In this document: piece after piece, positions 13,519 through 39,023 of the stretch
Position numbering within the stretch: position 1 is the stretch's first letter
Layout of the letters: each line of letters opens with the position of its first letter
Source: Trypanosoma brucei
Taxonomy: Eukaryota
Reading direction: 5' to 3'
Assembly: GCA_000002445.1 (NCBI GenBank)
Contig: CM000208.1
Span: 512,001 to 576,000, forward strand
Length of the DNA stretch: 64,000 bases
Translations under genes and position numbers: made by a program
The notes under the pieces: model-generated
The model's input: only the letters and a program-made list of their open reading frames with translations
Database searches by the model: none
Told to the model about the DNA's origin: nothing

Positions 13519-13888
13519 CTTTCAGCGGCGAATGGCGTTACATCTGTGATATTGCACCCACACATTGTTTATGCTGCTGCTTTGCGCTGAACACTTTAAG
13601 GCAACGTATGAGGTCTTCATTAGGTGTGACGGGGATCTGTTGTCGTTACTGTCCTTATGTGATGTTGTTGCTTCTCTTAATTCCTTTCTTTCCCCCTTTT
13701 CTGCTTGCACCGGTGCAATACTGCCGTGTGGATCGATACGCCATAAGAAAGCAATACAAACACAAATAAGTTATATAAAAAACTCTATTTATTACTAAAG
13801 CCAAAACCCCGAGACACATATCATTTCCAGTATAAAGGAAAAAGATATCAGCGTAAGTTTATCACCTCGATATTGGAACGTCCGAGTA

Positions 13889-15304
13889 ATGTCTAGACGC
13901 CTAAACAATATCCTCGAACACATCTCGATCCAGGGAAATGATGGTGAGACTGTGCGTGCCGTTAAGCGTGATGTTGCAATGGCAGCGCTGACCAACCAAT
14001 TCACAATGAGTGTCGAGTCTATGCGACAGATCATGACATACCTCCTGTACGAGATGGTGGAGGGTCTTGAGGGTCGTGAAAGCACCGTCCGCATGTTACC
14101 ATCTTATGTATACAAGGCGGACCCTAAGCGTGCTACTGGCGTCTTCTACGCACTTGACCTCGGTGGTACCAACTTCCGTGTGCTGCGCGTTGCATGCAAG
14201 GAGGGTGCCGTGGTGGATTCCTCTACTTCTGCATTCAAGATTCCCAAATATGCCCTTGAGGGTAACGCCACCGATCTGTTTGGCTTCATTGCATCCAATG
14301 TGAAGAAAACCATGGAAACTCGTGCACCTGAGGACCTCAATCGCACAGTTCCTCTTGGGTTTACCTTCAGTTTCCCCGTGGAGCAGACGAAGGTTAACCG
14401 TGGTGTGCTTATCCGGTGGACGAAGGGCTTCAGCACGAAAGGCGTTCAAGGAAATGATGTGATTGCCCTTCTTCAGGCTGCTTTTGGGCGAGTGAGCTTG
14501 AAGGTGAATGTTGTGGCGTTGTGCAACGACACTGTTGGAACATTAATTTCGCATTACTTTAAGGACCCTGAGGTACAGGTTGGTGTGATTATCGGCACTG
14601 GTTCCAATGCGTGCTACTTTGAGACGGCGTCTGCTGTGACGAAGGACCCTGCCGTTGCTGCTCGTGGGTCAGCACTTACTCCCATCAATATGGAAAGCGG
14701 CAACTTTGACTCCAAGTACCGGTTTGTCCTCCCTACGACGAAGTTCGACTTGGATATTGACGATGCGTCGTTGAACAAAGGTCAACAGGCGCTGGAGAAG
14801 ATGATATCCGGCATGTACCTCGGCGAAATCGCCCGCCGCGTTATTGTGCACCTGTCGTCTATTAACTGCCTTCCTGCGGCACTGCAGACTGCTTTGGGCA
14901 ACCGGGGGTCGTTTGAGTCCCGATTTGCCGGGATGATCAGTGCTGACCGTATGCCCGGACTTCAGTTCACTCGCAGCACGATCCAGAAGGTGTGTGGTGT
15001 TGACGTGCAGTCAATTGAAGACCTTCGCATCATTCGCGATGTGTGCCGCCTTGTCCGTGGGAGGGCTGCGCAACTCTCTGCTTCCTTCTGCTGCGCTCCA
15101 CTGGTTAAGACTCAAACACAGGGCCGTGCAACTATTGCAATTGACGGCTCCGTGTTTGAGAAGATTCCGTCATTCCGCCGCGTCTTGCAGGACAACATCA
15201 ACCGTATCCTTGGCCCTGAGTGCGATGTCAGGGCCGTTCTCGCAAAGGATGGCAGTGGAATTGGTGCTGCATTTATTTCCGCAATGGTGGTGAACGACAA
15301 GTAA
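13889..15304 (+). CDS. HK1: Hexokinase, glycosomal (PTS2-bearing), upstream copy (HK1-like)
   Basis: 471 aa; N-terminal PTS2-like MSRRLNNILEHI; hexokinase motifs LDLGGTNFRV, FTFSFPV, IGTGSNACYFE. Differs from the downstream copy at G/D, GTL/ATM and N/S internally and in the C-terminal tail (...AKDGSGIGAAFISAMVVNDK). Confidence 0.93.
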   Translation: MSRRLNNILEHISIQGNDGETVRAVKRDVAMAALTNQFTMSVESMRQIMTYLLYEMVEGLEGRESTVRMLPSYVYKADPKRATGVFYALDLGGTNFRVLRVACKEGAVVDSSTSAFKIPKYALEGNATDLFGFIASNVKKTMETRAPEDLNRTVPLGFTFSFPVEQTKVNRGVLIRWTKGFSTKGVQGNDVIALLQAAFGRVSLKVNVVALCNDTVGTLISHYFKDPEVQVGVIIGTGSNACYFETASAVTKDPAVAARGSALTPINMESGNFDSKYRFVLPTTKFDLDIDDASLNKGQQALEKMISGMYLGEIARRVIVHLSSINCLPAALQTALGNRGSFESRFAGMISADRMPGLQFTRSTIQKVCGVDVQSIEDLRIIRDVCRLVRGRAAQLSASFCCAPLVKTQTQGRATIAIDGSVFEKIPSFRRVLQDNINRILGPECDVRAVLAKDGSGIGAAFISAMVVNDK

Positions 15305-16934
15305 GTGAGAAAACCATGCTTTTCAAAATTACTTTCACTGTCTGTTCATATTTTGTGTTCTTTTTGTTTTTGAAATGGGCGTTTTTTGTCGCTCTCGGTG
15401 GCAGTGCTCACATGCTATTCGAGTTACCACTCCGTCTTATCCCCAAATCCTTCCGTCAACGGTACCACAACAATTGATGATCCAAAAAGATCAAAAAGAA
15501 AATATTTTCTTTATCGCAGACTAGCGAAAACATAGGCGATAAGAGAGGAAAAACGTTTTTCTCTTGTGGCCTCCCCCCTTACGAAGGTGAGAACCTCTGC
15601 ACTTTGTGTGCTTAACCTCCTTTTTGTGTAATGGTCTGTTTTCTATACTAATAGGTAGTTGTAATATAAGTTACTGCAATTACTTTATCCTCATTTTCCT
15701 CTGGTTACCCTCTCTTTTTTGTTGTTGCTGTTTCTGTGATAAAGCAACTCGGACAAAGAAGGAATAAATGCAGCTAATATATTTTGAATGGGGACGAAAA
15801 GAGAAATTGTTTTACCTATCCTTTCGTGTTTTCTTTTTGTTTATGCTTCATTATTGTTGTCGTCGCTTTCGGTGATAATATTTTTACTGTAAGGTAGTAA
15901 CTAAACATTTATTGTAGTATTACCTTTTTTACTGCGATGAGGCTTGCGCTGTTCTTGTTGTTGTGTTTGCTTCCATGATTTATTATGGACGGAAATGGGA
16001 TCGGAAGGAGAGGGGGAGACAAAAGGTGTGGCGACTATTGCTAAAAAACAAAAGCAAAAAGAACTAAAAAAAAGTGTGAACATTAAGCAGCTGTAAAGTA
16101 AATATTTTTCTGGGTTTTTTTTTCAGTTCTTCTTTGTTTATTTTTATTTTTCGGTGCCACAGTTATGTGGGACTAGGGTTAGGGAATTAATAATAATGTA
16201 AAATGGGGGAATTTACAAATATGGGAGGAGAGGAATCATATAAAGTAAGGTTACCTCATTCATTTAAGGTCACTACTCCATATTTTCCCTTTTCACCAAC
16301 TCTTGTGATATTTTTAGGGAGGACGAAAGGAAAAAAGGAAAAAAATGAAAAGCAATGTGAAATAGGAATGGAGATGAATGAAGGAAAAGTAACAACTGGA
16401 AGAATTGAGAGAGAAATAATGAAAAGGTGTGGAGGATGTGTCACCGGAGGCGGTGAAAAGAGGTATAACGAAAAAAAAACGAACAAGGGAAAGAAATAAT
16501 TATGGGGAAGTGAACTGATACAAAACGTAAGGGGCAAAACGTGAAAAGGATAATACAAGGTTTGGCAGGAGACTCTAAAAGCAAACAAAGGGTATATATA
16601 CACCCACACATTGTTTATGCTGCTGCTTTGCGCTGAACACTTTAAGGCAACGTATGAGGTCTTCATTAGGTGTGACGGGGATCTGTTGTCGTTACTGTCC
16701 TTGTGTGATGTTGTTGCTTCTCTTAATTCCTTTCTTTCCCCCCTTTCTGCTTGCACCGGTGCAATACTGCCGTGTGGATCGATACGCCATAAGAAAGCAA
16801 TACAAACACAAATAAGTTATATAAAAAACTCTATTTATTACTAAAGCCAAAACCCCGAGACACATATCATTTCCAGTATAAAGGAAAAAGATATCAGCGT
16901 AAGTTTATCACCTCGATATTGGAACGTCCGAGTA

Positions 16935-18350
16935 ATGTCTAGACGCCTAAACAATATCCTCGAACACATCTCGATCCAGGGAAATGATGGTGAGACTGTG
17001 CGTGCCGTTAAGCGTGATGTTGCAATGGCAGCGCTGACCAACCAATTCACAATGAGTGTGGAGTCTATGCGACAGATCATGACATACCTCCTGTACGAGA
17101 TGGTGGAGGGTCTTGAGGGTCGTGAAAGCACCGTCCGCATGTTACCATCTTATGTATACAAGGCGGACCCTAAGCGTGCTACTGGCGTCTTCTACGCACT
17201 TGACCTCGGTGGTACCAACTTCCGTGTGCTGCGCGTTGCATGCAAGGAGGGTGCCGTGGTGGATTCCTCTACTTCTGCATTCAAGATTCCCAAATATGCC
17301 CTTGAGGGTAACGCCACCGATCTGTTTGACTTCATTGCATCCAATGTGAAGAAAACCATGGAAACTCGTGCACCTGAGGACCTCAATCGCACAGTTCCTC
17401 TTGGGTTTACCTTCAGTTTCCCCGTGGAGCAGACGAAGGTTAACCGTGGTGTGCTTATCCGGTGGACGAAGGGCTTCAGCACGAAAGGCGTTCAAGGAAA
17501 TGATGTGATTGCCCTTCTTCAGGCTGCTTTTGGGCGAGTGAGCTTGAAGGTGAATGTTGTGGCGTTGTGCAACGACACTGTTGCCACGATGATTTCGCAT
17601 TACTTTAAGGACCCTGAGGTACAGGTTGGTGTGATTATCGGCACTGGTTCCAATGCGTGCTACTTTGAGACGGCGTCTGCTGTGACGAAGGACCCTGCCG
17701 TTGCTGCTCGTGGGTCAGCACTTACTCCCATCAGTATGGAAAGCGGCAACTTTGACTCCAAGTACCGGTTTGTCCTCCCTACGACGAAGTTCGACTTGGA
17801 TATTGACGATGCGTCGTTGAACAAAGGTCAACAGGCGCTGGAGAAGATGATATCCGGCATGTACCTCGGCGAAATCGCCCGCCGCGTTATTGTGCACCTG
17901 TCGTCTATTAACTGCCTTCCTGCGGCACTGCAGACTGCTTTGGGCAACCGGGGGTCGTTTGAGTCCCGATTTGCCGGGATGATCAGTGCTGACCGTATGC
18001 CCGGACTTCAGTTCACTCGCAGCACGATCCAGAAGGTGTGTGGTGTTGACGTGCAGTCAATTGAAGACCTTCGCATCATTCGCGATGTGTGCCGCCTTGT
18101 CCGTGGGAGGGCTGCGCAACTCTCTGCTTCCTTCTGCTGCGCTCCACTGGTTAAGACTCAAACACAGGGCCGTGCAACTATTGCAATTGACGGCTCCGTG
18201 TTTGAGAAGATTCCGTCATTCCGCCGCGTCTTGCAGGACAACATCAACCGTATCCTTGGCCCTGAGTGCGATGTCAGGGCCGTTCTCGCAAAGGGTGGCA
18301 GTGGTGTCGGTGCGGCACTTATCTCCGCTATCGTTGCTGACGGGAAGTGA
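16935..18350 (+). CDS. HK2: Hexokinase, glycosomal, downstream copy (HK2-like) with divergent C-terminal tail
   Basis: 471 aa, ~98% identical to the upstream copy; C-terminus ...AKGGSGVGAALISAIVADGK. Assignment of HK1/HK2 to the two copies follows the known T. brucei locus order and is not certain from sequence alone. Confidence 0.93.
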   Translation: MSRRLNNILEHISIQGNDGETVRAVKRDVAMAALTNQFTMSVESMRQIMTYLLYEMVEGLEGRESTVRMLPSYVYKADPKRATGVFYALDLGGTNFRVLRVACKEGAVVDSSTSAFKIPKYALEGNATDLFDFIASNVKKTMETRAPEDLNRTVPLGFTFSFPVEQTKVNRGVLIRWTKGFSTKGVQGNDVIALLQAAFGRVSLKVNVVALCNDTVATMISHYFKDPEVQVGVIIGTGSNACYFETASAVTKDPAVAARGSALTPISMESGNFDSKYRFVLPTTKFDLDIDDASLNKGQQALEKMISGMYLGEIARRVIVHLSSINCLPAALQTALGNRGSFESRFAGMISADRMPGLQFTRSTIQKVCGVDVQSIEDLRIIRDVCRLVRGRAAQLSASFCCAPLVKTQTQGRATIAIDGSVFEKIPSFRRVLQDNINRILGPECDVRAVLAKGGSGVGAALISAIVADGK

Positions 18351-18629
18351 AGGTGAGTGTCCGCGAACGTAGTGTAATTTTCTGTTATTTTTTAAAAATT
18401 TGTTAGTTAGCGTGAAATTCTTCTGAAAAGCAGCAGTTGACAAAAAACTTTCTGTCTGTCTGTATTGATTTTTTTATTTTTCGTTATTATGCGTTTTTTT
18501 GTGATGACACTGCTATGCTATTTCGGCAATATAGCGTCGGTTTTGCAACTTAAACGGACTTACCGTGGCCTCAGCGACTTTTGCATTTCGTTTTTTCTAG
18601 TATTTTTTTCTGATGTACTTTTGTTTCTT

Positions 18630-31260: not shown

Positions 31261-32010
31261 ATGCTGTGGATTCAAATATGTACATTTGTAGTGCTTTCCA
31301 CATGTCTTCTCGTTCCTGAGGTGGTGAACGCTTGGAGCTATGGAGAGCTTCTTCCCGTTAGCTTCCACTTACGCCTGAAGCGCACAGCTGCAGCCACAGA
31401 TATTCCCAGAGGAGCAGATGATATGATTGAAGTCAAGGAAACAAAAAATAACCAGTGGCTTATTACTCGTCCGCTTCCACCGGACAACAGTCCTCGTTTT
31501 GCAATTAACACACGAGCTCACCAACCATCCACGAGGCTTTTTGAGTACGCCACCAATGCAACAAAACAAGAAGGTGGCTCTATATCAGATGTTGCTGTCC
31601 GCTTTCAAATTGAGCGTGGCCTGGCCAAATCCACTGCTTGGTACCCCCTGATGAAAACTATCATAAAAAAAATAACGACGGAAAAAAGAAAATCGAAAGT
31701 GGAACACTCAAAGGAAGAACATTATCTAGCTGGCCTCAATTTCCACTTTGGCTATCAAAGCGGAACTTTTCACAAGATTACGTCTTTCAGGGTAGAGCCA
31801 ACGTACTCCAAAGTGAAGAACAACGACCTTGAACTTCATTACCAATGGACAGAGCACCGAACATATAACCCACACATTGCTCTCTGTATATGCTCCCTAG
31901 TCGCAGTTATAGCTGCATCATCTACTTTATCACTAATATTTACAAAAAAGACACACCTTACAAAAGCATTTAGTAAGAAAGAAGTAAGAGTAAAAAATCA
32001 TAAGCAATAG
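31261..32010 (+). CDS. Hypothetical type-I membrane protein (signal peptide + C-terminal TM helix)
   Basis: The track ORF starts at a TTG at 31111; in-frame ATG at 31261 gives MLWIQICTFVVLSTCLLVPEVVNAWSYG (signal-peptide-like) and C-terminal IALCICSLVAVIAASSTLSLIFT (TM) followed by a basic tail. Confidence 0.45.
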   Translation: MLWIQICTFVVLSTCLLVPEVVNAWSYGELLPVSFHLRLKRTAAATDIPRGADDMIEVKETKNNQWLITRPLPPDNSPRFAINTRAHQPSTRLFEYATNATKQEGGSISDVAVRFQIERGLAKSTAWYPLMKTIIKKITTEKRKSKVEHSKEEHYLAGLNFHFGYQSGTFHKITSFRVEPTYSKVKNNDLELHYQWTEHRTYNPHIALCICSLVAVIAASSTLSLIFTKKTHLTKAFSKKEVRVKNHKQ

Positions 32011-32174
32011 CAAAGAAAAAAAAATAACAATATTAAAAAAAGATGAAAATATCATATCAAAAATAATAATAATATTTTACGAAAAAGAAACAAAAAATAT
32101 TTAAATATCCTTCTCCCCACGCTATTTAAGTGTTTATTAAAAGTTAACTCTCACGTGAAAGTAAAGTAACAGCC

Positions 32175-33525
32175 ATGGGAAAGGAAAAGGTGCACATGAA
32201 TCTTGTGGTGGTGGGCCACGTCGATGCCGGTAAATCCACTGCAACGGGTCACTTGATCTACAAGTGCGGTGGTATTGACAAACGTACGATCGAGAAGTTC
32301 GAGAAAGAAGCTGCCGACATTGGTAAGCGCCTCATTCAAGTACGCATGGGTGCTGGACAAGCTGAAGGCTGAGCGCGAACGTGGTATCACGATCGACATT
32401 GCACTGTGGAAATTCGAGTCACCCAAGTCTGTCTTCACTATTATTGATGCTCCTGGGCACCGTGACTTCATCAAGAACATGATCACCGGCACATCGCAAG
32501 CCGACGCAGCCATCCTCATCATTGCCTCTGCGCAGGGTGAGTTCGAGGCTGGTATCTCCAAGGATGGACAGACCCGCGAGCACGCGTTGCTGGCCTTCAC
32601 TTTGGGTGTGAAGCAGATGGTTGTGTGCTGCAACAAGATGGACGACAAGACTGTGAACTACGGACAGGAGCGGTATGACGAGATTGTGAAGGAGGTGTCT
32701 GCTTACATCAAGAAGGTTGGGTACAACGTGGAGAAGGTGCGCTTCGTCCCCATCTCCGGATGGCAGGGCGACAACATGATTGAGAAATCCGAGAAGATGC
32801 CATGGTACAAGGGTCCAACGCTCCTGGAGGCACTAGACATGCTGGAGCCACCAGTGCGTCCGAGCGACAAGCCCCTGCGTCTGCCACTGCAGGACGTGTA
32901 CAAGATCGGTGGTATTGGCACCGTGCCCGTTGGTCGTGTGGAGACCGGCGTGATGAAGCCTGGTGATGTGGTGACGTTTGCCCCCGCCAACGTGACGACC
33001 GAGGTGAAATCGATCGAGATGCACCACGAGCAGCTCGCTGAGGCGACCCCCGGTGACAACGTCGGCTTTAACGTGAAGAACGTTTCTGTAAAGGACATCC
33101 GCCGTGGCAACGTCTGCGGTAACACCAAGAACGACCCCCCAAAGGAGGCCGCCGACTTCACGGCACAGGTGATCATCCTGAACCACCCCGGACAGATTGG
33201 AAACGGTTATGCGCCCGTGCTGGACTGCCACACATCGCACATTGCCTGCAAGTTCGCGGAGATCGAGTCGAAGATCGACCGTCGCTCTGGCAAGGAGCTG
33301 GAGAAGGCTCCCAAGTCGATCAAGTCTGGCGACGCCGCGATCGTGCGCATGGTGCCGCAGAAGCCTATGTGCGTGGAGGTCTTCAACGACTACGCGCCAC
33401 TCGGCCGCTTTGCCGTGCGTGACATGCGCCAGACCGTCGCTGTCGGTATCATCAAGGCCGTGACCAAGAAGGACGGTTCTGGTGGTAAGGTGACGAAGGC
33501 TGCGGTGAAGGCTTCGAAGAAATAA
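32175..33525 (+). pseudogene. TEF1: Elongation factor 1-alpha, copy 1: disrupted by a 1-nt insertion (+1 frameshift) near codon 52 (pseudogene or sequence error)
   Basis: Copy 1 reads ccgacattggtaagCgcctcattcaag, copies 2/3 read ccgacattggtaaggcctcattcaag (extra c at ~32328). The frame-1 product stops after 65 aa (..[19 protein letters not shown]). The rest of the EF-1alpha sequence continues in another frame (track ORF 32269-33525) and is otherwise identical to copies 2/3. Confidence 0.8.
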
Positions 33526-34225
33526 ACAATGGTCCCTACCGCGTCACAGCGTATGAAGGCCACATTGCAATTTAGCGTGGGACATTGCATAAATGACGGT
33601 GGTGGGGGTCACTGTTTGAGGGCGTGTCTTAAGCTGGATTGAATGATGTGGTGACGGATCCAAGGAGGTAGAAGAGGATGTAAGGGGTATGAAGGGAAGA
33701 GAAATGGGAAAAGAGATTAAATGATATTAATAGGAAAATGAAAATGATATTTTAGTGCAAAGAAAAAACTATAACAATTAACACTGAATAACTACGGAAA
33801 AGAAAATGAATACTCAATAATAACAATAATAACCAGAATACCACGACTCTGAGCGGAGGTAGATAATATGCTGAGACGAACACAGGAAAAGAAACATAAT
33901 GAGGAGTGGTAATAAGCAATCGTAATGCATCATGATAAAATATTTGTGGGTAGATGACTGCGGAAAAACGTAACACAGCTGGGTTGGTGCTTTTGAAGGA
34001 ATGCTGTTGGCTGCTGTAACGTGAAAATAATGGTGCACCGAGTACAAACCCGCAAGGTGCAAAGGGGGAGTGCAATAAATGAGAAGCTGTAACTCCTAGG
34101 CACAGCTCGACGGTCTCTTAAGTTTGGCATTGCCTCCTCCTTGAATTGGATACGTACACACAAGCCCTTGTGCCGCCGCTTGACGGTGGTGTGGACACGT
34201 ATACCCATATGCATGTCACTGCGCC

Positions 34226-34291
34226 ACTCTTCTTTCTTCTTGTTTTTTGTTATCGTCTATTGTGCGTACTGCCGTATACGTTGTTTACTAG
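34226..34291 (+). promoter_or_regulatory. Polypyrimidine tract + AG trans-splice acceptor of EF-1alpha copy 2 (the same element recurs at 36405-36474 for copy 3)
   Basis: cactcttctttcttcttgttttttgttatcgtctattgtgcgtactgccgtatacgttgtttactag, then 60 nt of 5' UTR to the ATG at 34352. Confidence 0.6.
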
Positions 34292-34351
34292 GTCTTCGCT
34301 ATTTAAGTGTTTATTAAAAGTTAACTCTCACGTGAAAGTAAAGTAACAGCC

Positions 34352-35701
34352 ATGGGAAAGGAAAAGGTGCACATGAATCTTGTGGTGGTGGGCCACGTCG
34401 ATGCCGGTAAATCCACTGCAACGGGTCACTTGATCTACAAGTGCGGTGGTATTGACAAACGTACGATCGAGAAGTTCGAGAAAGAAGCTGCCGACATTGG
34501 TAAGGCCTCATTCAAGTACGCATGGGTGCTGGACAAGCTGAAGGCTGAGCGCGAACGTGGTATCACGATCGACATTGCACTGTGGAAATTCGAGTCACCC
34601 AAGTCTGTCTTCACTATTATTGATGCTCCTGGGCACCGTGACTTCATCAAGAACATGATCACCGGCACATCGCAAGCCGACGCAGCCATCCTCATCATTG
34701 CCTCTGCGCAGGGTGAGTTCGAGGCTGGTATCTCCAAGGATGGACAGACCCGCGAGCACGCGTTGCTGGCCTTCACTTTGGGTGTGAAGCAGATGGTTGT
34801 GTGCTGCAACAAGATGGACGACAAGACTGTGAACTACGGACAGGAGCGGTATGACGAGATTGTGAAGGAGGTGTCTGCTTACATCAAGAAGGTTGGGTAC
34901 AACGTGGAGAAGGTGCGCTTCGTCCCCATCTCCGGATGGCAGGGCGACAACATGATTGAGAAATCCGAGAAGATGCCATGGTACAAGGGTCCAACGCTCC
35001 TGGAGGCACTAGACATGCTGGAGCCACCAGTGCGTCCGAGCGACAAGCCCCTGCGTCTGCCACTGCAGGACGTGTACAAGATCGGTGGTATTGGCACCGT
35101 GCCCGTTGGTCGTGTGGAGACCGGCGTGATGAAGCCTGGTGATGTGGTGACGTTTGCCCCCGCCAACGTGACGACCGAGGTGAAATCGATCGAGATGCAC
35201 CACGAGCAGCTCGCTGAGGCGACCCCCGGTGACAACGTCGGCTTTAACGTGAAGAACGTTTCTGTAAAGGACATCCGCCGTGGCAACGTCTGCGGTAACA
35301 CCAAGAACGACCCCCCAAAGGAGGCCGCCGACTTCACGGCACAGGTGATCATCCTGAACCACCCCGGACAGATTGGAAACGGTTATGCGCCCGTGCTGGA
35401 CTGCCACACATCGCACATTGCCTGCAAGTTCGCGGAGATCGAGTCGAAGATCGACCGTCGCTCTGGCAAGGAGCTGGAGAAGGCTCCCAAGTCGATCAAG
35501 TCTGGCGACGCCGCGATCGTGCGCATGGTGCCGCAGAAGCCTATGTGCGTGGAGGTCTTCAACGACTACGCGCCACTCGGCCGCTTTGCCGTGCGTGACA
35601 TGCGCCAGACCGTCGCTGTCGGTATCATCAAGGCCGTGACCAAGAAGGACGGTTCTGGTGGTAAGGTGACGAAGGCTGCGGTGAAGGCTTCGAAGAAATA
35701 A
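34352..35701 (+). CDS. TEF1: Elongation factor 1-alpha, copy 2 (intact, 449 aa)
   Basis: [35 protein letters not shown]...; GTP-binding motifs [14 protein letters not shown] and NKMD are present. Confidence 0.97.
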
Positions 35702-36534
35702 ACAATGGTCCCTACCGCGTCACAGCGTATGAAGGCCACATTGCAATTTAGAGTGGGACATTGCATAAATGACGGTGGTGGGGGTCACTGTTTGAGGGCG
35801 TGTCTTAAGCTGGATTGAATGATGTGGTGACGGATCCAAGGAGGTAGAAGAGGATGTAAGGGGTATGAAGGGAAGAGAAATGGGAAAAGAGATTAAATGA
35901 TATTAATAGGAAAATGAAAATGATATTTTAGTGCAAAGAAAAAACTATAACAATTAACACTGAATAACTACGGAAAAGAAAATGAATACTCAATAATAAC
36001 AATAATAACCAGAATACCACGACTCTGAGCGGAGGTAGATAATATGCTGAGACGAACACAGGAAAAGAAACATAATGAGGAGTGGTAATAAGCAATCGTA
36101 ATGCATCATGATAAAATATTTGTGGGTAGATGACTGCGGAAAAACGTAACACAGCTGGGTTGGTGCTTTTGAAGGAATGCTGTTGGCTGCTGTAACGTGA
36201 AAATAATGGTGCACCGAGTACAAACCCGCAAGGTGCAAAGGGGGAGTGCAATAAATGAGAAGCTGTAACTCCTAGGCACAGCTCGACGGTCTCTTAAGTT
36301 TGGCATTGCCTCCTCCTTGAATTGGATACGTACACACAAGCCCTTGTGCCGCCGCTTGACGGTGGTGTGGACACGTATACCCATATGCATGTCACTGCGC
36401 CACTCTTCTTTCTTCTTTCTTCTTGTTTTTTGTTATCGTCTATTGTGCGTACTGCCGTATACGTTGTTTACTAGGTCTTCGCTATTTAAGTGTTTATTAA
36501 AAGTTAACTCTCACGTGAAAGTAAAGTAACAGCC

Positions 36535-37884
36535 ATGGGAAAGGAAAAGGTGCACATGAATCTTGTGGTGGTGGGCCACGTCGATGCCGGTAAATCCACT
36601 GCAACGGGTCACTTGATCTACAAGTGCGGTGGTATTGACAAACGTACGATCGAGAAGTTCGAGAAAGAAGCTGCCGACATTGGTAAGGCCTCATTCAAGT
36701 ACGCATGGGTGCTGGACAAGCTGAAGGCTGAGCGCGAACGTGGTATCACGATCGACATTGCACTGTGGAAATTCGAGTCACCCAAGTCTGTCTTCACTAT
36801 TATTGATGCTCCTGGGCACCGTGACTTCATCAAGAACATGATCACCGGCACATCGCAAGCCGACGCAGCCATCCTCATCATTGCCTCTGCGCAGGGTGAG
36901 TTCGAGGCTGGTATCTCCAAGGATGGACAGACCCGCGAGCACGCGTTGCTGGCCTTCACTTTGGGTGTGAAGCAGATGGTTGTGTGCTGCAACAAGATGG
37001 ACGACAAGACTGTGAACTACGGACAGGAGCGGTATGACGAGATTGTGAAGGAGGTGTCTGCTTACATCAAGAAGGTTGGGTACAACGTGGAGAAGGTGCG
37101 CTTCGTCCCCATCTCCGGATGGCAGGGCGACAACATGATTGAGAAATCCGAGAAGATGCCATGGTACAAGGGTCCAACGCTCCTGGAGGCACTAGACATG
37201 CTGGAGCCACCAGTGCGTCCGAGCGACAAGCCCCTGCGTCTGCCACTGCAGGACGTGTACAAGATCGGTGGTATTGGCACCGTGCCCGTTGGTCGTGTGG
37301 AGACCGGCGTGATGAAGCCTGGTGATGTGGTGACGTTTGCCCCCGCCAACGTGACGACCGAGGTGAAATCGATCGAGATGCACCACGAGCAGCTCGCTGA
37401 GGCGACCCCCGGTGACAACGTCGGCTTTAACGTGAAGAACGTTTCTGTAAAGGACATCCGCCGTGGCAACGTCTGCGGTAACACCAAGAACGACCCCCCA
37501 AAGGAGGCCGCCGACTTCACGGCACAGGTGATCATCCTGAACCACCCCGGACAGATTGGAAACGGTTATGCGCCCGTGCTGGACTGCCACACATCGCACA
37601 TTGCCTGCAAGTTCGCGGAGATCGAGTCGAAGATCGACCGTCGCTCTGGCAAGGAGCTGGAGAAGGCTCCCAAGTCGATCAAGTCTGGCGACGCCGCGAT
37701 CGTGCGCATGGTGCCGCAGAAGCCTATGTGCGTGGAGGTCTTCAACGACTACGCGCCACTCGGCCGCTTTGCCGTGCGTGACATGCGCCAGACCGTCGCT
37801 GTCGGTATCATCAAGGCCGTGACCAAGAAGGACGGTTCTGGTGGTAAGGTGACGAAGGCTGCGGTGAAGGCTTCGAAGAAATAA
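36535..37884 (+). CDS. TEF1: Elongation factor 1-alpha, copy 3 (intact, 449 aa; identical protein to copy 2)
   Basis: Identical translation to copy 2. Confidence 0.97.
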
Positions 37885-38438
37885 ACAATGGTCCCTACCG
37901 CGTCACAGCGTATGAAGGCCACATTGCAATTTAGCGTGGGACATTGCATAAATGACGGTGGTGGGGGTCACTGTTTGAGGGCGTGTCTTAAGCTGGATTG
38001 AATGATGTGGTGACGGATCCAAGGAGGTAGAAGAGGATGTAAGGGGTATGAAGGGAAGAGAAATGGGAAAAGAGATTAAATGATATTAATAGGAAAATGA
38101 AAATGATATTTTAGTGCAAAGAAAAAACTATAACAATTAACACTGAATAACTACGGAAAAGAAAATGAATACTCAATAATAACAATAATAACCAGAATAC
38201 CACGACTCTGAGCGGAGGTAGATAATATGCTGAGACGAACACAGGAAAAGAAACATAATGAGGAGTGGTAATAAGCAATCGTAATGCATCATGATAAAAT
38301 ATTTGTGGGTAGATGACTGCGGAAAAACGTAACACAGCTGGGTTGGTGCTTTTGAAGGAATGCTGTTGGCTGCTGTAACGTGAAAATAATGGTGCACCTA
38401 GTAATTTTTTTATTTTTTTCATTTTTTAGTTTTATAGT

Positions 38439-39023
38439 ATGAGTGATAGTTTTGCTTTGGATGATGCTAGGCGAATTAAGAGGCGGCGACGGCTTAGTAG
38501 GATGTCGATAGAAGGGCGTCGGCGGCAGCTTCAATATCGTCGCCGTCACAATGAACGCGATGGTCGATTGTTGTATTGTGATTATTGTGATTTGTTTGTG
38601 TGTAGTTCTCTCAGAAGCTGGGGTGAACATGTTATAAGTGAACGGCACATGGAGAATATGGAATGCTATTATGCTATGGTTGAGGCATATGAACCTTCTT
38701 GGTTGGGTAGTATTTGTGACGATGTTTCTCGTGCCCATGTTGAAAATCATGTGAGGCGTCATCAGAGTGTGTCGGGAAAGGGCTCGAGTGTCCCTATTCC
38801 TGCTGTTGTTGCTGGACGTGTTGATGATCAGGAGATAATCGTGGGTGGTTTGCCAAAACCGTCACGTACTGCTGCGGAAACTTATAATAATAGTTGCAAT
38901 ATTGCTGGTACTCCGTCGGTACGGGTTGCTGGAGTGCTTGTAGCTAGTGCTGCTCCTCCCGTGGTAAAGGTTGGTAACAAACCAGTAACGCCCACACCAC
39001 TTTCGGTCACGAAACGTGAATGA
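38439..39023 (+). CDS. Small basic protein with a U1/matrin-type C2H2 zinc finger
   Basis: 194 aa; Arg-rich N-terminus (RRIKRRRRLSRMSIEGRRRQLQYRRRH) and C-x2-C-x(12)-H-x(5)-H: YCDYCDLFVCSSLRSWGEHVISERH. The ATG lies 43 nt past the end of the EF-1alpha repeat homology. Confidence 0.55.
   Translation: MSDSFALDDARRIKRRRRLSRMSIEGRRRQLQYRRRHNERDGRLLYCDYCDLFVCSSLRSWGEHVISERHMENMECYYAMVEAYEPSWLGSICDDVSRAHVENHVRRHQSVSGKGSSVPIPAVVAGRVDDQEIIVGGLPKPSRTAAETYNNSCNIAGTPSVRVAGVLVASAAPPVVKVGNKPVTPTPLSVTKRE

What the first reader, a model, noticed from the sequence alone, without database searches (positions are those of the whole stretch)
32118..38395. EF-1alpha triple tandem array whose first copy carries a +1 frameshift and lacks the polypyrimidine tract of the other copies
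Copies 2 and 3 are identical and intact. Copy 1 is identical in nucleotide sequence except for one extra C (~32328, ggtaagCgcc versus ggtaaggcc), which truncates the frame after 65 aa. Copy 1's upstream region shares only ~57 nt with the repeat unit. It also lacks the long polyY tract (cactcttctttcttcttgttttttgtt...) that precedes copies 2 and 3; it has only a short tccttctcccc run before an AG. Near-perfect identity elsewhere argues for ongoing gene conversion, so a true inactivating mutation would be expected to be erased or to spread. A collapsed-repeat assembly or base-calling error is therefore a live alternative. The array also shows unit boundaries precisely: homology begins at 32118 and ends at 38395.
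Basis: seen in the sequence. Interest (0 to 1): 0.5.

Follow-up and report, generated by a model that had tools for sequence, protein, structure and literature searches.

The report
Known trypanosome EF-1alpha array, one-base oddity
This is the well-known three-copy elongation factor 1-alpha gene array on chromosome 10 of the Trypanosoma brucei TREU927 reference genome; the extra C in the first copy occurs only in this reference sequence and is already annotated there, so the finding is ordinary.

Summary
There are three head-to-tail EF-1alpha units. CDS 2 and 3 are identical, at 449 aa. CDS 1 is identical except for one extra C at 32328, which leaves a 65-aa ORF. Copy 1 shares only 55 nt of 5' flank with the unit and lacks the long polypyrimidine tract.

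The window is T. brucei TREU927 chr10 (v4 512001-576000). Copy 1 is Tb10.70.5680/Tb927.10.2090. GenBank already models it as a 348-aa truncated "elongation factor 1-alpha" (XP_822464.1), which starts at the first in-frame ATG after the frameshift.

The unusual 5' flank of copy 1 is a conserved array-edge feature. It is present, with an intact copy 1, in T. b. gambiense DAL972 and T. b. equiperdum. It is also present in T. equiperdum OVI, although a gap there interrupts the link to the coding sequence. It is therefore not linked to the frameshift.

RNA contigs carrying the spliced leader place the acceptor AG of the internal copies 5 nt upstream of where copy-1 homology begins. Copy 1 must therefore use its own short tract and a downstream AG.

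The extra C is absent from all 12 copies in the other three genome assemblies and from three RNA-derived contigs. Whether it is a consensus error in the 2005 assembly (slightly favoured) or a recent, possibly allelic, mutation cannot be settled without reads. Interest is low, and the feature is already known.

The parts
31261..32010 (+). Upstream neighbour: a 249-aa hypothetical, T. brucei-specific ORF (EAN77635.1 / XP_822463.1). Its stop lies only 164 nt from the copy-1 ATG. Its 3' end and the spacer are 22-25% GC and A-rich.
   Evidence: no Pfam hit
32108..32118 (+). Short 11-nt pyrimidine run (tccttctcccc), the only polypyrimidine element in front of copy 1. It lies in the unique flank and is conserved, with 1-2 substitutions, in three other T. 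brucei-group assemblies.
32129..32130 (+). First AG downstream of the short tract, with A at -3, so no excluded G. This is the inferred trans-splice acceptor for copy 1. It lies inside the shared 55 nt, with identical counterparts at 34306 and 36489.
   Evidence: acceptor rules from PMC2936537; actual use is inferred, not shown
32120..34296 (+). Repeat unit 1 (2177 nt).
32175..33525 (+). EF-1alpha copy 1 (Tb10.70.5680 / Tb927.10.2090): 1351 nt, identical to copies 2 and 3 apart from one inserted base.
32328..32328 (+). The extra C, inserted between two G's inside AGGCCT, so it is not a homopolymer extension. It is absent from every other copy examined.
32175..32372 (+). 65-aa ORF left by the frameshift. 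It covers positions 2-42 of the 188-position Pfam GTP_EFTU profile, which includes the N-terminal GHVDAGKS nucleotide-binding motif.
32479..33525 (+). 348-aa ORF from the first in-frame ATG after the frameshift. This is the GenBank/GeneDB gene model XP_822464.1 / EAN77636.1, 'elongation factor 1-alpha'. It lacks the first 85 positions of the GTP_EFTU profile.
34040..34296 (+). 257-nt segment found only between units (second copy at 36216-36479). It holds the major poly(A) site of the internal units, the long polypyrimidine tract and the acceptor AG. It is absent at both ends of the array.
34227..34251 (+). Long polypyrimidine tract in front of copy 2 (15 nt pure, 25 nt with two purines).
34290..34291 (+). 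Trans-splice acceptor AG of the internal copies (counterpart at 36473-36474). The 5' UTR is 60 nt and starts GTCTTCGC at 34292. Copy-1 homology begins 5 nt downstream of the equivalent position.
   Evidence: three RNA-derived contigs (L007-L009) join the 3' end of the spliced leader directly to GTCTTCGCTATTT. The identity of the leader sequence is supported.
34297..36479 (+). Repeat unit 2 (2183 nt), with a 7-nt insertion at 36404-36410 in its polypyrimidine tract and the private A at 35752.
34352..35701 (+). EF-1alpha copy 2 (Tb10.70.5670 / Tb927.10.2100), intact, 449 aa.
36480..38403 (+). Repeat unit 3, partial (1924 nt). It ends 514-519 nt after the stop codon.
36535..37884 (+). EF-1alpha copy 3 (Tb10.70.5650 / Tb927.10.2110), intact, 449 aa, identical to copy 2.
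34143..34143 (+). Published major poly(A) site of unit 1, 618 nt after the stop. The equivalent site of unit 2 is at 36319. The last copy uses 38322, 438 nt after the stop.
   Evidence: Kolev et al. 2010, Table S13. The coordinates convert to window coordinates with a constant offset of 512000. Reads in identical sequence cannot be assigned to one copy.
38439..39023 (+). Downstream neighbour: a 194-aa ORF preceded by a T-rich tract at about 38405-38435. It marks the conserved 3' edge of the array.

Best explanation
The region is the TEF1 (eEF1A) tandem array of Trypanosoma brucei brucei TREU927 chromosome 10. Its genes are Tb927.10.2090, .2100 and .2110, formerly Tb10.70.5680, 5670 and 5650.

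How it works. It is an ordinary trypanosome dosage array. Same-strand copies sit in a polycistron and are kept identical by gene conversion or unequal crossing-over. Each internal copy is processed through a long polypyrimidine tract and an AG 60 nt before the ATG, which is shown here. That signal also sets the upstream copy's poly(A) site about 85 nt before the tract; the site is published and the coupling is inferred.

The array edges. They are fixed and conserved across the T. brucei group. At the 5' edge, homology begins 5 nt inside the 5' UTR. The first copy therefore has to be spliced through its own 11-nt pyrimidine run and a downstream AG at 32129, which is inferred. This is the 'terminal UTRs curtailed' pattern already described for T. 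brucei arrays. It has nothing to do with the frameshift.

The extra C at 32328. It is private to this reference sequence. I judge it slightly more likely to be a consensus or placement error of the 2005 Sanger assembly, which is a haplotype-collapsed and possibly copy-collapsed array, than a fixed property of the strain. Either way it has no demonstrated biological role. It is already embodied in the public annotation as a 348-aa truncated EF-1alpha model.
For: Identity of the locus.
- PMC3275919 names the tandem TbEF1A genes Tb927.10.2090 and .2100 on chr10, separated by an intergenic region of about 825 nt.
- The poly(A) table of Kolev et al. gives stop positions 545525, 547701 and 549884. 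These equal window positions 33525, 35701 and 37884 plus 512000.
- Exact-sequence look-up returns XP_822464.1 (348 aa) and EAN77637/EAN77638 (449 aa), all from TREU927.
- The mass of 37784 reported for Tb10.70.5680 equals the monoisotopic mass of the 348-aa ORF.

The array-edge pattern is conserved.
- The same 5' junction is present in DAL972 and T. b. equiperdum with an intact copy 1, and in T. equiperdum OVI up to an N gap.
- The same 3' junction is present in all three.
- Jackson 2007 describes the curtailed terminal UTRs.

Acceptor site. Spliced-leader junctions are present in L007-L009.

The extra C is private.
- It is absent from 8 copies in T. b. equiperdum, 3 in DAL972, 1 in OVI and 3 RNA contigs.
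- OVI differs from the window by only 0.5-1.4 substitutions per kb in the flanks.

Assemblies do introduce one-base indels in this array.
- The 8-copy long-read array has single-G deletions in copies 7 and 8, and in intergenic homopolymers.
- The DAL972 and OVI arrays contain N gaps.
- The TREU927 assembly is a haplotype-collapsed mosaic in which at least one gene appears wrongly split.
Against: The insertion does not extend a homopolymer, so it is not the commonest type of base-calling error.

The same assembly resolves two other private differences between units: the A at 35752 and the 7-nt insertion at 36404-36410. These look like genuine variation, so the finishers may have had read support for all three.

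Flank indel and substitution rates between TREU927 and its closest relative make one real new mutation in 1.35 kb of a redundant copy unsurprising.

No reads were available. The error-versus-real call therefore rests on priors only.
Confidence: 0.55

Rival explanations
1. The extra C is real. It is a recent, TREU927-lineage-specific, possibly heterozygous, one-base insertion that has inactivated the edge copy of the array and has not yet been erased or spread by gene conversion. Because trypanosomes appear to lack nonsense-mediated decay, the mRNA would persist and yield at most a 65-aa peptide.
For: Two other private differences between units in the same array suggest that homogenisation is not instantaneous. 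The neutral expectation from flank divergence against OVI is of order 0.1-1 mutation per 1.35 kb. The sequence is finished Sanger sequence, and the change is not a homopolymer miscount. Allele-specific premature stop codons exist in T. brucei and do not lower transcript levels (PMC8445201). The remaining two or more intact copies would cover the dosage need.
Against: The C is absent from all 12 other genomic copies, including the near-identical OVI relative. The CDS is otherwise free of even synonymous change, both between copies and between strains whose flanks differ by 0.5-0.8%, which shows very efficient homogenisation or selection. An insertion that does not duplicate a neighbouring base is an uncommon type of spontaneous insertion (general knowledge). 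No product carrying the frameshift is on record in any other assembly, although that look-up has little power.
Confidence: 0.41
2. The frameshifted copy is functional. It would be decoded by programmed +1 ribosomal frameshifting at AAG-CGC-C to give full-length eEF1A, or it would express the 348-aa GTPase-less fragment (domains II and III) with a separate role.
For: The 348-aa ORF keeps complete domains II and III. One proteomics table lists Tb10.70.5680.
Against: The frameshift is not conserved in any relative, whereas programmed frameshifts are conserved. The site does not resemble the +1 frameshift sites known from other organisms (general knowledge). The proteomic hit came from a gel band listed together with a protein of about 49.7 kDa and rests on peptides shared with the full-length protein, so it is not evidence for a 38-kDa species. 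The 348-aa product lacks the first 85 positions of the GTPase profile. Its start codon lies about 350 nt from any plausible cap-proximal position, behind the 65-aa ORF.
Confidence: 0.02
3. The closeness of the array boundaries to the mRNA ends means that the copies arose, or are homogenised, through an RNA intermediate, either by retroposition or by RNA-templated conversion.
For: The 5' homology boundary lies only 5 nt inside the mapped 5' end of the mRNA.
Against: There is no spliced-leader remnant upstream of copy 1 and no A-tail at the 3' boundary, where the sequence turns T-rich. The 3' boundary (+514 to +519) matches neither mapped major poly(A) site (+438, +618). The internal spacers carry 257 nt that span the gap between the poly(A) site and the acceptor AG and are therefore largely absent from mature mRNA, yet this segment is homogenised too. 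The copies are strictly head-to-tail at one locus.
Confidence: 0.02

Closest known systems
T. brucei TREU927 TEF1 array: Tb927.10.2090 / .2100 / .2110 (GenBank XP_822464.1, EAN77637.1, EAN77638.1)
   Same: It is this very locus. The products are identical in sequence and the published coordinates match, with a window offset of 512000 in chr10 v4. The 348-aa truncated model of copy 1 follows directly from the extra C.
   Different: Nothing differs. The public record calls copy 1 'elongation factor 1-alpha' and does not flag the frameshift. The papers I could read treat it as one of three TEF1 genes.
Invariant tandem gene arrays of T. brucei under concerted evolution (Jackson 2007, PMC1855330)
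   Same: The copies are head-to-tail in one polycistron. The coding and intergenic sequences are identical apart from variation in repetitive-tract length. The terminal flanks are identical to the internal spacers but curtailed to roughly the UTRs.
   Different: The paper's main text does not mention EF-1alpha. Here the 5' curtailment is mapped to within 5 nt of the experimentally supported acceptor site. The 3' edge (+514 to +519) lies between the two published poly(A) sites rather than on one.
Apparent frameshifts created by collapsed or mosaic assemblies of T. brucei (Cosentino et al. 2021, PMC8445201), together with the truncated EF-1alpha models in the T. b. equiperdum long-read assembly (RHW69813.1, 168 aa)
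   Same: In both cases a one-base indel in an otherwise perfect gene copy produces a truncated gene model. In the 8-copy array two such indels sit in the last two copies.
   Different: Those indels are deletions within homopolymers in long-read data. Here it is an insertion outside a homopolymer in a Sanger-era assembly, so the analogy is weaker.
Coupled trans-splicing and polyadenylation directed by polypyrimidine tracts in trypanosomatids (LeBowitz 1993 and Matthews 1994, as cited in PMC2936537)
   Same: The internal copies have a long tract with an AG 39 nt downstream and the upstream poly(A) site about 85 nt upstream. The last copy's poly(A) site moves to about 80 nt before the next gene's T-rich tract.
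   Different: Copy 1 has only an 11-nt tract, 11 nt before its first AG. Whether and how efficiently that acceptor is used was not measurable here.

Membership tests
eEF1A / EF-1alpha translational GTPase | Three-domain architecture: the GTP_EFTU G domain, domain 2, and domain 3 / eEF1A C-terminal domain. | tested here: met
   For copies 2 and 3: PF00009 (1.5e-56, profile positions 2-186 of 188), PF03144, PF03143 and PF22594 all score above the curated cut-offs. The product is identical to the Swiss-Prot-named EF1A1_TRYB2 cluster.
eEF1A / EF-1alpha translational GTPase | An uninterrupted reading frame that encodes the complete G domain, assessed for copy 1 as written in the window. | tested here: not met
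   The frame breaks after codon 51. The 65-aa ORF covers only profile positions 2-42. The 348-aa ORF covers only positions 86-186 of the G domain, plus domains 2 and 3. As sequenced, copy 1 is a pseudogene or a sequence error, not an intact family member.
T. brucei tandem gene array under concerted evolution (Jackson 2007) | At least 2-3 same-strand head-to-tail copies with (near-)identical coding and intergenic sequence. | tested here: met
   Three units of 2177, 2183 and 1924 nt show only three differences in 6.28 kb. The CDS is also identical to all intact copies in three other assemblies, whose flanks differ by 0.05-0.8%.
T. brucei tandem gene array under concerted evolution (Jackson 2007) | Terminal flanks identical to the internal spacers but curtailed. 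| tested here: met
   The 5' flank is shared for 55 nt and the 3' flank for 514-519 nt. 257 nt of the spacer are present only between units. The feature is described in PMC1855330.
Processed (retro)pseudogene | A spliced-leader remnant at the 5' end, a poly(A) remnant at the 3' end, and a dispersed location. | tested here: not met
   The 3'-terminal 12 nt of the spliced leader do not occur anywhere in the window. The 3' boundary is followed by T-rich, not A-rich, sequence. The copy is in register within the tandem array.
Programmed +1 ribosomal frameshift gene | The frameshift is conserved in orthologues or other strains. | tested here: not met
   All 12 other genomic copies and 3 RNA contigs lack the extra C.
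Trans-splice acceptor region of T. brucei | An AG preceded by a polypyrimidine tract, with no G at -3, and an experimentally observed SL junction. | tested here: met
   For the internal copies: tract at 34227-34251, AG at 34290-34291 with T at -3, and SL-joined RNA contigs L007-L009. The rules are taken from PMC2936537.
Trans-splice acceptor region of T. brucei | The same signals, assessed for copy 1. | tested here: inconclusive
   Sequence signals are present (11-nt tract at 32108-32118; AG at 32129 with A at -3) and are conserved in relatives. No SL junction at this AG was available. The stored acceptor-site tables of Kolev et al. are truncated before chr10. The AG is not unique to copy 1.

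The most novel reading that the evidence does not exclude
The extra C is real in TREU927 and copy 1 is trans-spliced through its own weak edge-specific signal. An abundant, NMD-immune mRNA would then carry a frameshifted eEF1A ORF. This would be a natural, datable example of an array-edge copy escaping concerted evolution in a trypanosome. It could produce a 65-aa N-terminal peptide that carries the GHVDAGKS nucleotide-binding motif, or, by reinitiation, a GTPase-less eEF1A fragment of domains II and III.
Probability: 0.04. Interest if true: 0.3.

Novelty: already known. Interest (0 to 1): 0.08.

Why it matters
It matters little for biology. The practical value lies in annotation hygiene.

- Tb927.10.2090 / XP_822464.1 is a 348-aa artefactual gene model created by a single base. 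Users of the TREU927 reference for proteomics databases, RNAi design or copy-number counts should know that it is either a pseudogene or an error.
- The array is probably under-represented. One T. b. equiperdum long-read assembly has eight copies.
- The analysis also gives a clean worked example of how the first and last genes of a trypanosome array borrow processing signals from unique flanks. The family's mRNAs are therefore expected to differ in UTR ends by position in the array.

Tried and rejected
1. Independent sequence carrying the frameshift. I ran exact-product look-ups for the 65-aa ORF, the 418-aa GTG-start ORF and the 348-aa ORF in the assembly/Logan gene-position index. Nothing is on record. 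The reference assembly itself is not in that index: the window's 909-aa neighbour is also absent. Power is low, because a minority one-base variant inside a repeat would be popped as a bubble in short-read contigs. For the same reason I did not spend a 5.8-billion-protein search on the frameshift peptide.

2. Published splice-acceptor maps for copy 1.
- Nilsson 2010 supplements have no entry.
- Siegel 2010 has no supplements held.
- In Kolev 2010 the acceptor-site tables (S4, S12) are truncated in storage. Only abundance and poly(A) data were retrievable.

3. Origin of the 257-nt inter-unit-only segment. A sensitive blastn against the whole window found no other copy, so the origin is unexplained.

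4. Retroposition and programmed frameshifting. Both were considered and rejected; see the rival explanations.

5. My own misidentification. I first took GCA_003543875.1 for Lister 427 from memory. NCBI's names identify it as T. brucei equiperdum, and I corrected this.

6. Other features. Rfam, tRNA and tandem-repeat scans of the window found nothing relevant.

Full report
**What is in the sequence**

The window holds three head-to-tail direct repeats with start-to-start spacing of 2177/2176 nt and then 2183 nt. The ORFs 34352-35701 and 36535-37884 are identical at the nucleotide level and encode a 449-aa protein.

The first copy, 32175-33525, is 1351 nt. A global alignment shows a single difference from the other two: one inserted C at 32328, giving GGTAAGCGCC where the others read GGTAAGGCC. 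It closes the frame after 65 codons, 51 native and 14 out of frame.

An alignment of the three whole units finds only three differences in 6.28 kb:
- the extra C at 32328;
- a C/A difference 51 nt after the stop (33576 C, 35752 A, 37935 C);
- a 7-nt insertion at 36404-36410 in the second polypyrimidine tract.

Upstream of copy 1 the match to the unit is exact for 55 nt, from 32120. Downstream of copy 3 the match ends at 38398, or at 38403 with one mismatch. In front of copy 1 there is only an 11-nt pyrimidine run (32108-32118). Copies 2 and 3 have tracts of 15 and 22 nt, which extend to 25 and 32 nt if two purines are allowed.

**What the locus is**

The overall GC content of about 49% pointed to a trypanosome. 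Three lines of evidence fix the identity.

1. [quoted passage not shown] The window's first spacer is 826 nt.
2. Table S13 of Kolev et al. 2010 lists poly(A) sites and 3' UTR lengths for Tb10.70.5680, 5670 and 5650. These imply stop codons at 545525, 547701 and 549884, exactly 512000 more than the three stops in the window. The window is therefore Tb927_10_v4:512001-576000.
3. Exact-sequence look-up finds the 449-aa product as EAN77637.1 and EAN77638.1, and the 249-aa upstream ORF as EAN77635.1, all from T. b. brucei TREU927.

The same look-up also finds the 348-aa ORF that begins at the first in-frame ATG after the frameshift (32479-33525). It is EAN77636.1 / XP_822464.1, 'elongation factor 1-alpha [T. 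b. brucei TREU927]'. A 2011 proteomics paper lists 'EF-1alpha, Tb10.70.5680, 37784 Da', which is the monoisotopic mass of that 348-aa ORF (37783.6).

The frameshift has therefore been in the public reference since the original annotation, hidden inside a truncated gene model. Pfam scoring shows that this model lacks the first 85 of the 188 positions of the GTPase-domain profile. The 65-aa ORF covers positions 2-42 only.

**Comparison with relatives**

Looking up the 449-aa product returned four kinds of sequence:
- chromosome-scale records of T. b. equiperdum (GCA_003543875.1; loci L001-L004);
- T. b. gambiense DAL972 (L006);
- a T. equiperdum OVI contig (L005, L010);
- three short RNA-derived contigs (L007-L009).

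None carries the extra C. That covers eight copies in the T. b. equiperdum array, three in DAL972 and one in OVI, where the array is collapsed.

The CDS of every intact copy is identical, base for base, to the window's copies 2 and 3. Yet the unique flanks differ from the window by 5-8 substitutions per kb in T. b. equiperdum and DAL972, and by 0.5-1.4 per kb in OVI.

The 5' junction, meaning the A-rich unique flank, the short pyrimidine run and then the shared 5' UTR, is conserved in all three assemblies. In DAL972 and T. b. equiperdum it precedes an intact first copy. In OVI an N gap follows the flank. The 3' junction is conserved as well.

The missing polypyrimidine tract is thus a fixed property of the array's edge. 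It is not a companion symptom of decay in copy 1.

**How the array is processed**

Contigs L007-L009 begin with the last 12-18 nt of the trypanosome spliced leader (…AGTTTCTGTACTATATTG). That sequence appears in SL-trapping and SL review papers. In the contigs it is joined directly to GTCTTCGCTATTT. This places the acceptor AG of the internal copies at 34290-34291 and 36473-36474 and gives a 60-nt 5' UTR.

Copy-1 homology starts 5 nt downstream of that point, so copy 1 has neither this AG nor its tract. The first AG after copy 1's own 11-nt tract is at 32129, with A at -3. That is compatible with the rule of an AG, an upstream pyrimidine tract and no G at -3 (PMC2936537). Its use is inferred, not shown. 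The same AG exists in copies 2 and 3 (34306 and 36489), so a splice there would not identify copy 1.

The published major poly(A) sites lie 618 nt after the stop for units 1 and 2 (34143 and 36319). Those positions are inside the inter-unit-only segment, about 85 nt before the long tract. For the last copy the site lies 438 nt after the stop (38322), about 80 nt before the next gene's T-rich tract. This fits the known coupling of polyadenylation to the downstream splice signal, with the caveat that reads in identical sequence cannot be assigned to one copy.

The pattern of terminal UTRs that are identical to the internal spacers but curtailed was described for T. brucei arrays by Jackson 2007. 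One oddity remains. The 257 nt at 34040-34296 exist only between units and nowhere else in the window. A simple duplication of a single segment does not predict this.

**Is the extra C real?**

This could not be decided, because no TREU927 reads were reachable.

Points for an error:
- The C is private to one assembly and absent from the near-identical OVI relative.
- The CDS is otherwise under such strong homogenisation or selection that not even synonymous differences exist between strains.
- Assemblies of this array are demonstrably fragile. DAL972 and OVI have N gaps. The long-read T. b. equiperdum array has one-base deletions in copies 7 and 8 and in its spacers, and NCBI turned one of these into a 168-aa truncated model.
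- The TREU927 reference is a haplotype-collapsed mosaic in which at least one gene appears wrongly split (PMC8445201).
- Eight copies in one relative suggest that three may be an undercount.

Points for a real mutation:
- The insertion is not a homopolymer miscount.
- The same finished sequence resolves two other private differences between units.
- Flank divergence makes one new mutation in 1.35 kb unremarkable.
- Allele-specific premature stops are known in T. brucei and are tolerated at the transcript level.

I put this at about 55% error, about 41% real and possibly allelic, and a few per cent for anything more exotic.

**Rejected readings**

Programmed +1 frameshifting, or a functional 348-aa fragment, is rejected for two reasons. 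The frameshift is not conserved, and the fragment lacks the N-terminal part of the GTPase domain. The proteomic mention of Tb10.70.5680 comes from a gel band listed together with a protein of about 49.7 kDa and rests on peptides shared with the full-length protein.

An RNA-mediated origin of the array edges is also rejected:
- There is no spliced-leader or A-tail remnant at either edge.
- The 3' edge matches neither published poly(A) site.
- The spacer DNA between the poly(A) site and the acceptor AG is homogenised too.

**Verdict**

This is a correct observation of an already annotated, ordinary locus. Its only residual value is as a curation flag for Tb927.10.2090 and as a tidy illustration of array-edge mRNA processing. 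Interest is 0.08, and the novelty class is 'already known'.

Noticed in passing
window 13549-15309 and 16594-18357: A second tandem duplicate, 98.4% identical over 1765 nt with spacing 3046 nt. It carries two 471-aa ORFs (13889-15304 and 16935-18350) that differ mainly at the C-terminus. From my own knowledge these look like the T. brucei hexokinase pair HK1/HK2; I ran no family search on them.
   Followed up: partly
window 34040-34296 and 36216-36479: A 257-nt segment (264 nt in the second copy) is present only between EF-1alpha units. It is absent from both outer flanks of the array and has no other homologue in the window. It contains the internal poly(A) site, the long polypyrimidine tract and the acceptor AG. 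A simple duplication of one segment would not leave such an inter-unit-only piece, so a later deletion or replacement at an array edge, or filler DNA at the original junction, is implied.
   Followed up: partly
window 31900-32110: A stretch of 22-25% GC, strongly A-rich, lies in a window that averages about 49% GC. It spans the 3' end of a T. brucei-specific 249-aa ORF (31261-32010, EAN77635.1, no Pfam hit) and the 164-nt spacer before copy 1. That spacer is unusually short to hold a 3' UTR, a splice signal and a 5' UTR.
   Followed up: partly
L001-L004 (GCA_003543875.1 CM010681.1, about 524909-541484): The T. b. equiperdum long-read assembly has eight EF-1alpha units. Copies 1-6 are identical to the window's CDS. 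Copy 7 lacks one G of a GG at CDS position 717, and copy 8 lacks one G of ATGGG. Three spacers show one- or two-base deletions in short runs. These are probably long-read indel errors, and NCBI models one of them as a 168-aa protein (RHW69813.1).
   Followed up: yes
L005 9647-9656; L006 12790-12889: The T. equiperdum OVI and T. b. gambiense DAL972 assemblies both have runs of N inside the EF-1alpha array. OVI is collapsed to a single copy, and DAL972 copy 2 is cut to 166 aa. Copy number in those records is therefore not informative.
   Followed up: yes
L007 (SRR2089768 contig), 3' end: After about 535 nt of 3' UTR this RNA-derived contig continues into the reverse complement of the inter-unit segment (…ggtgcaccgacaaggaggaggcaatgcc…). 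It looks like an assembly chimera or fold-back artefact.
   Followed up: no
window 35752 and 36404-36410: Two further variants are private to this assembly's array. One is an A where every other unit, the 8-copy array, OVI and the RNA contigs all have C. The other is a 7-nt insertion (TCTTCTT in the alignment) in a polypyrimidine tract, seen in no other spacer examined.
   Followed up: partly
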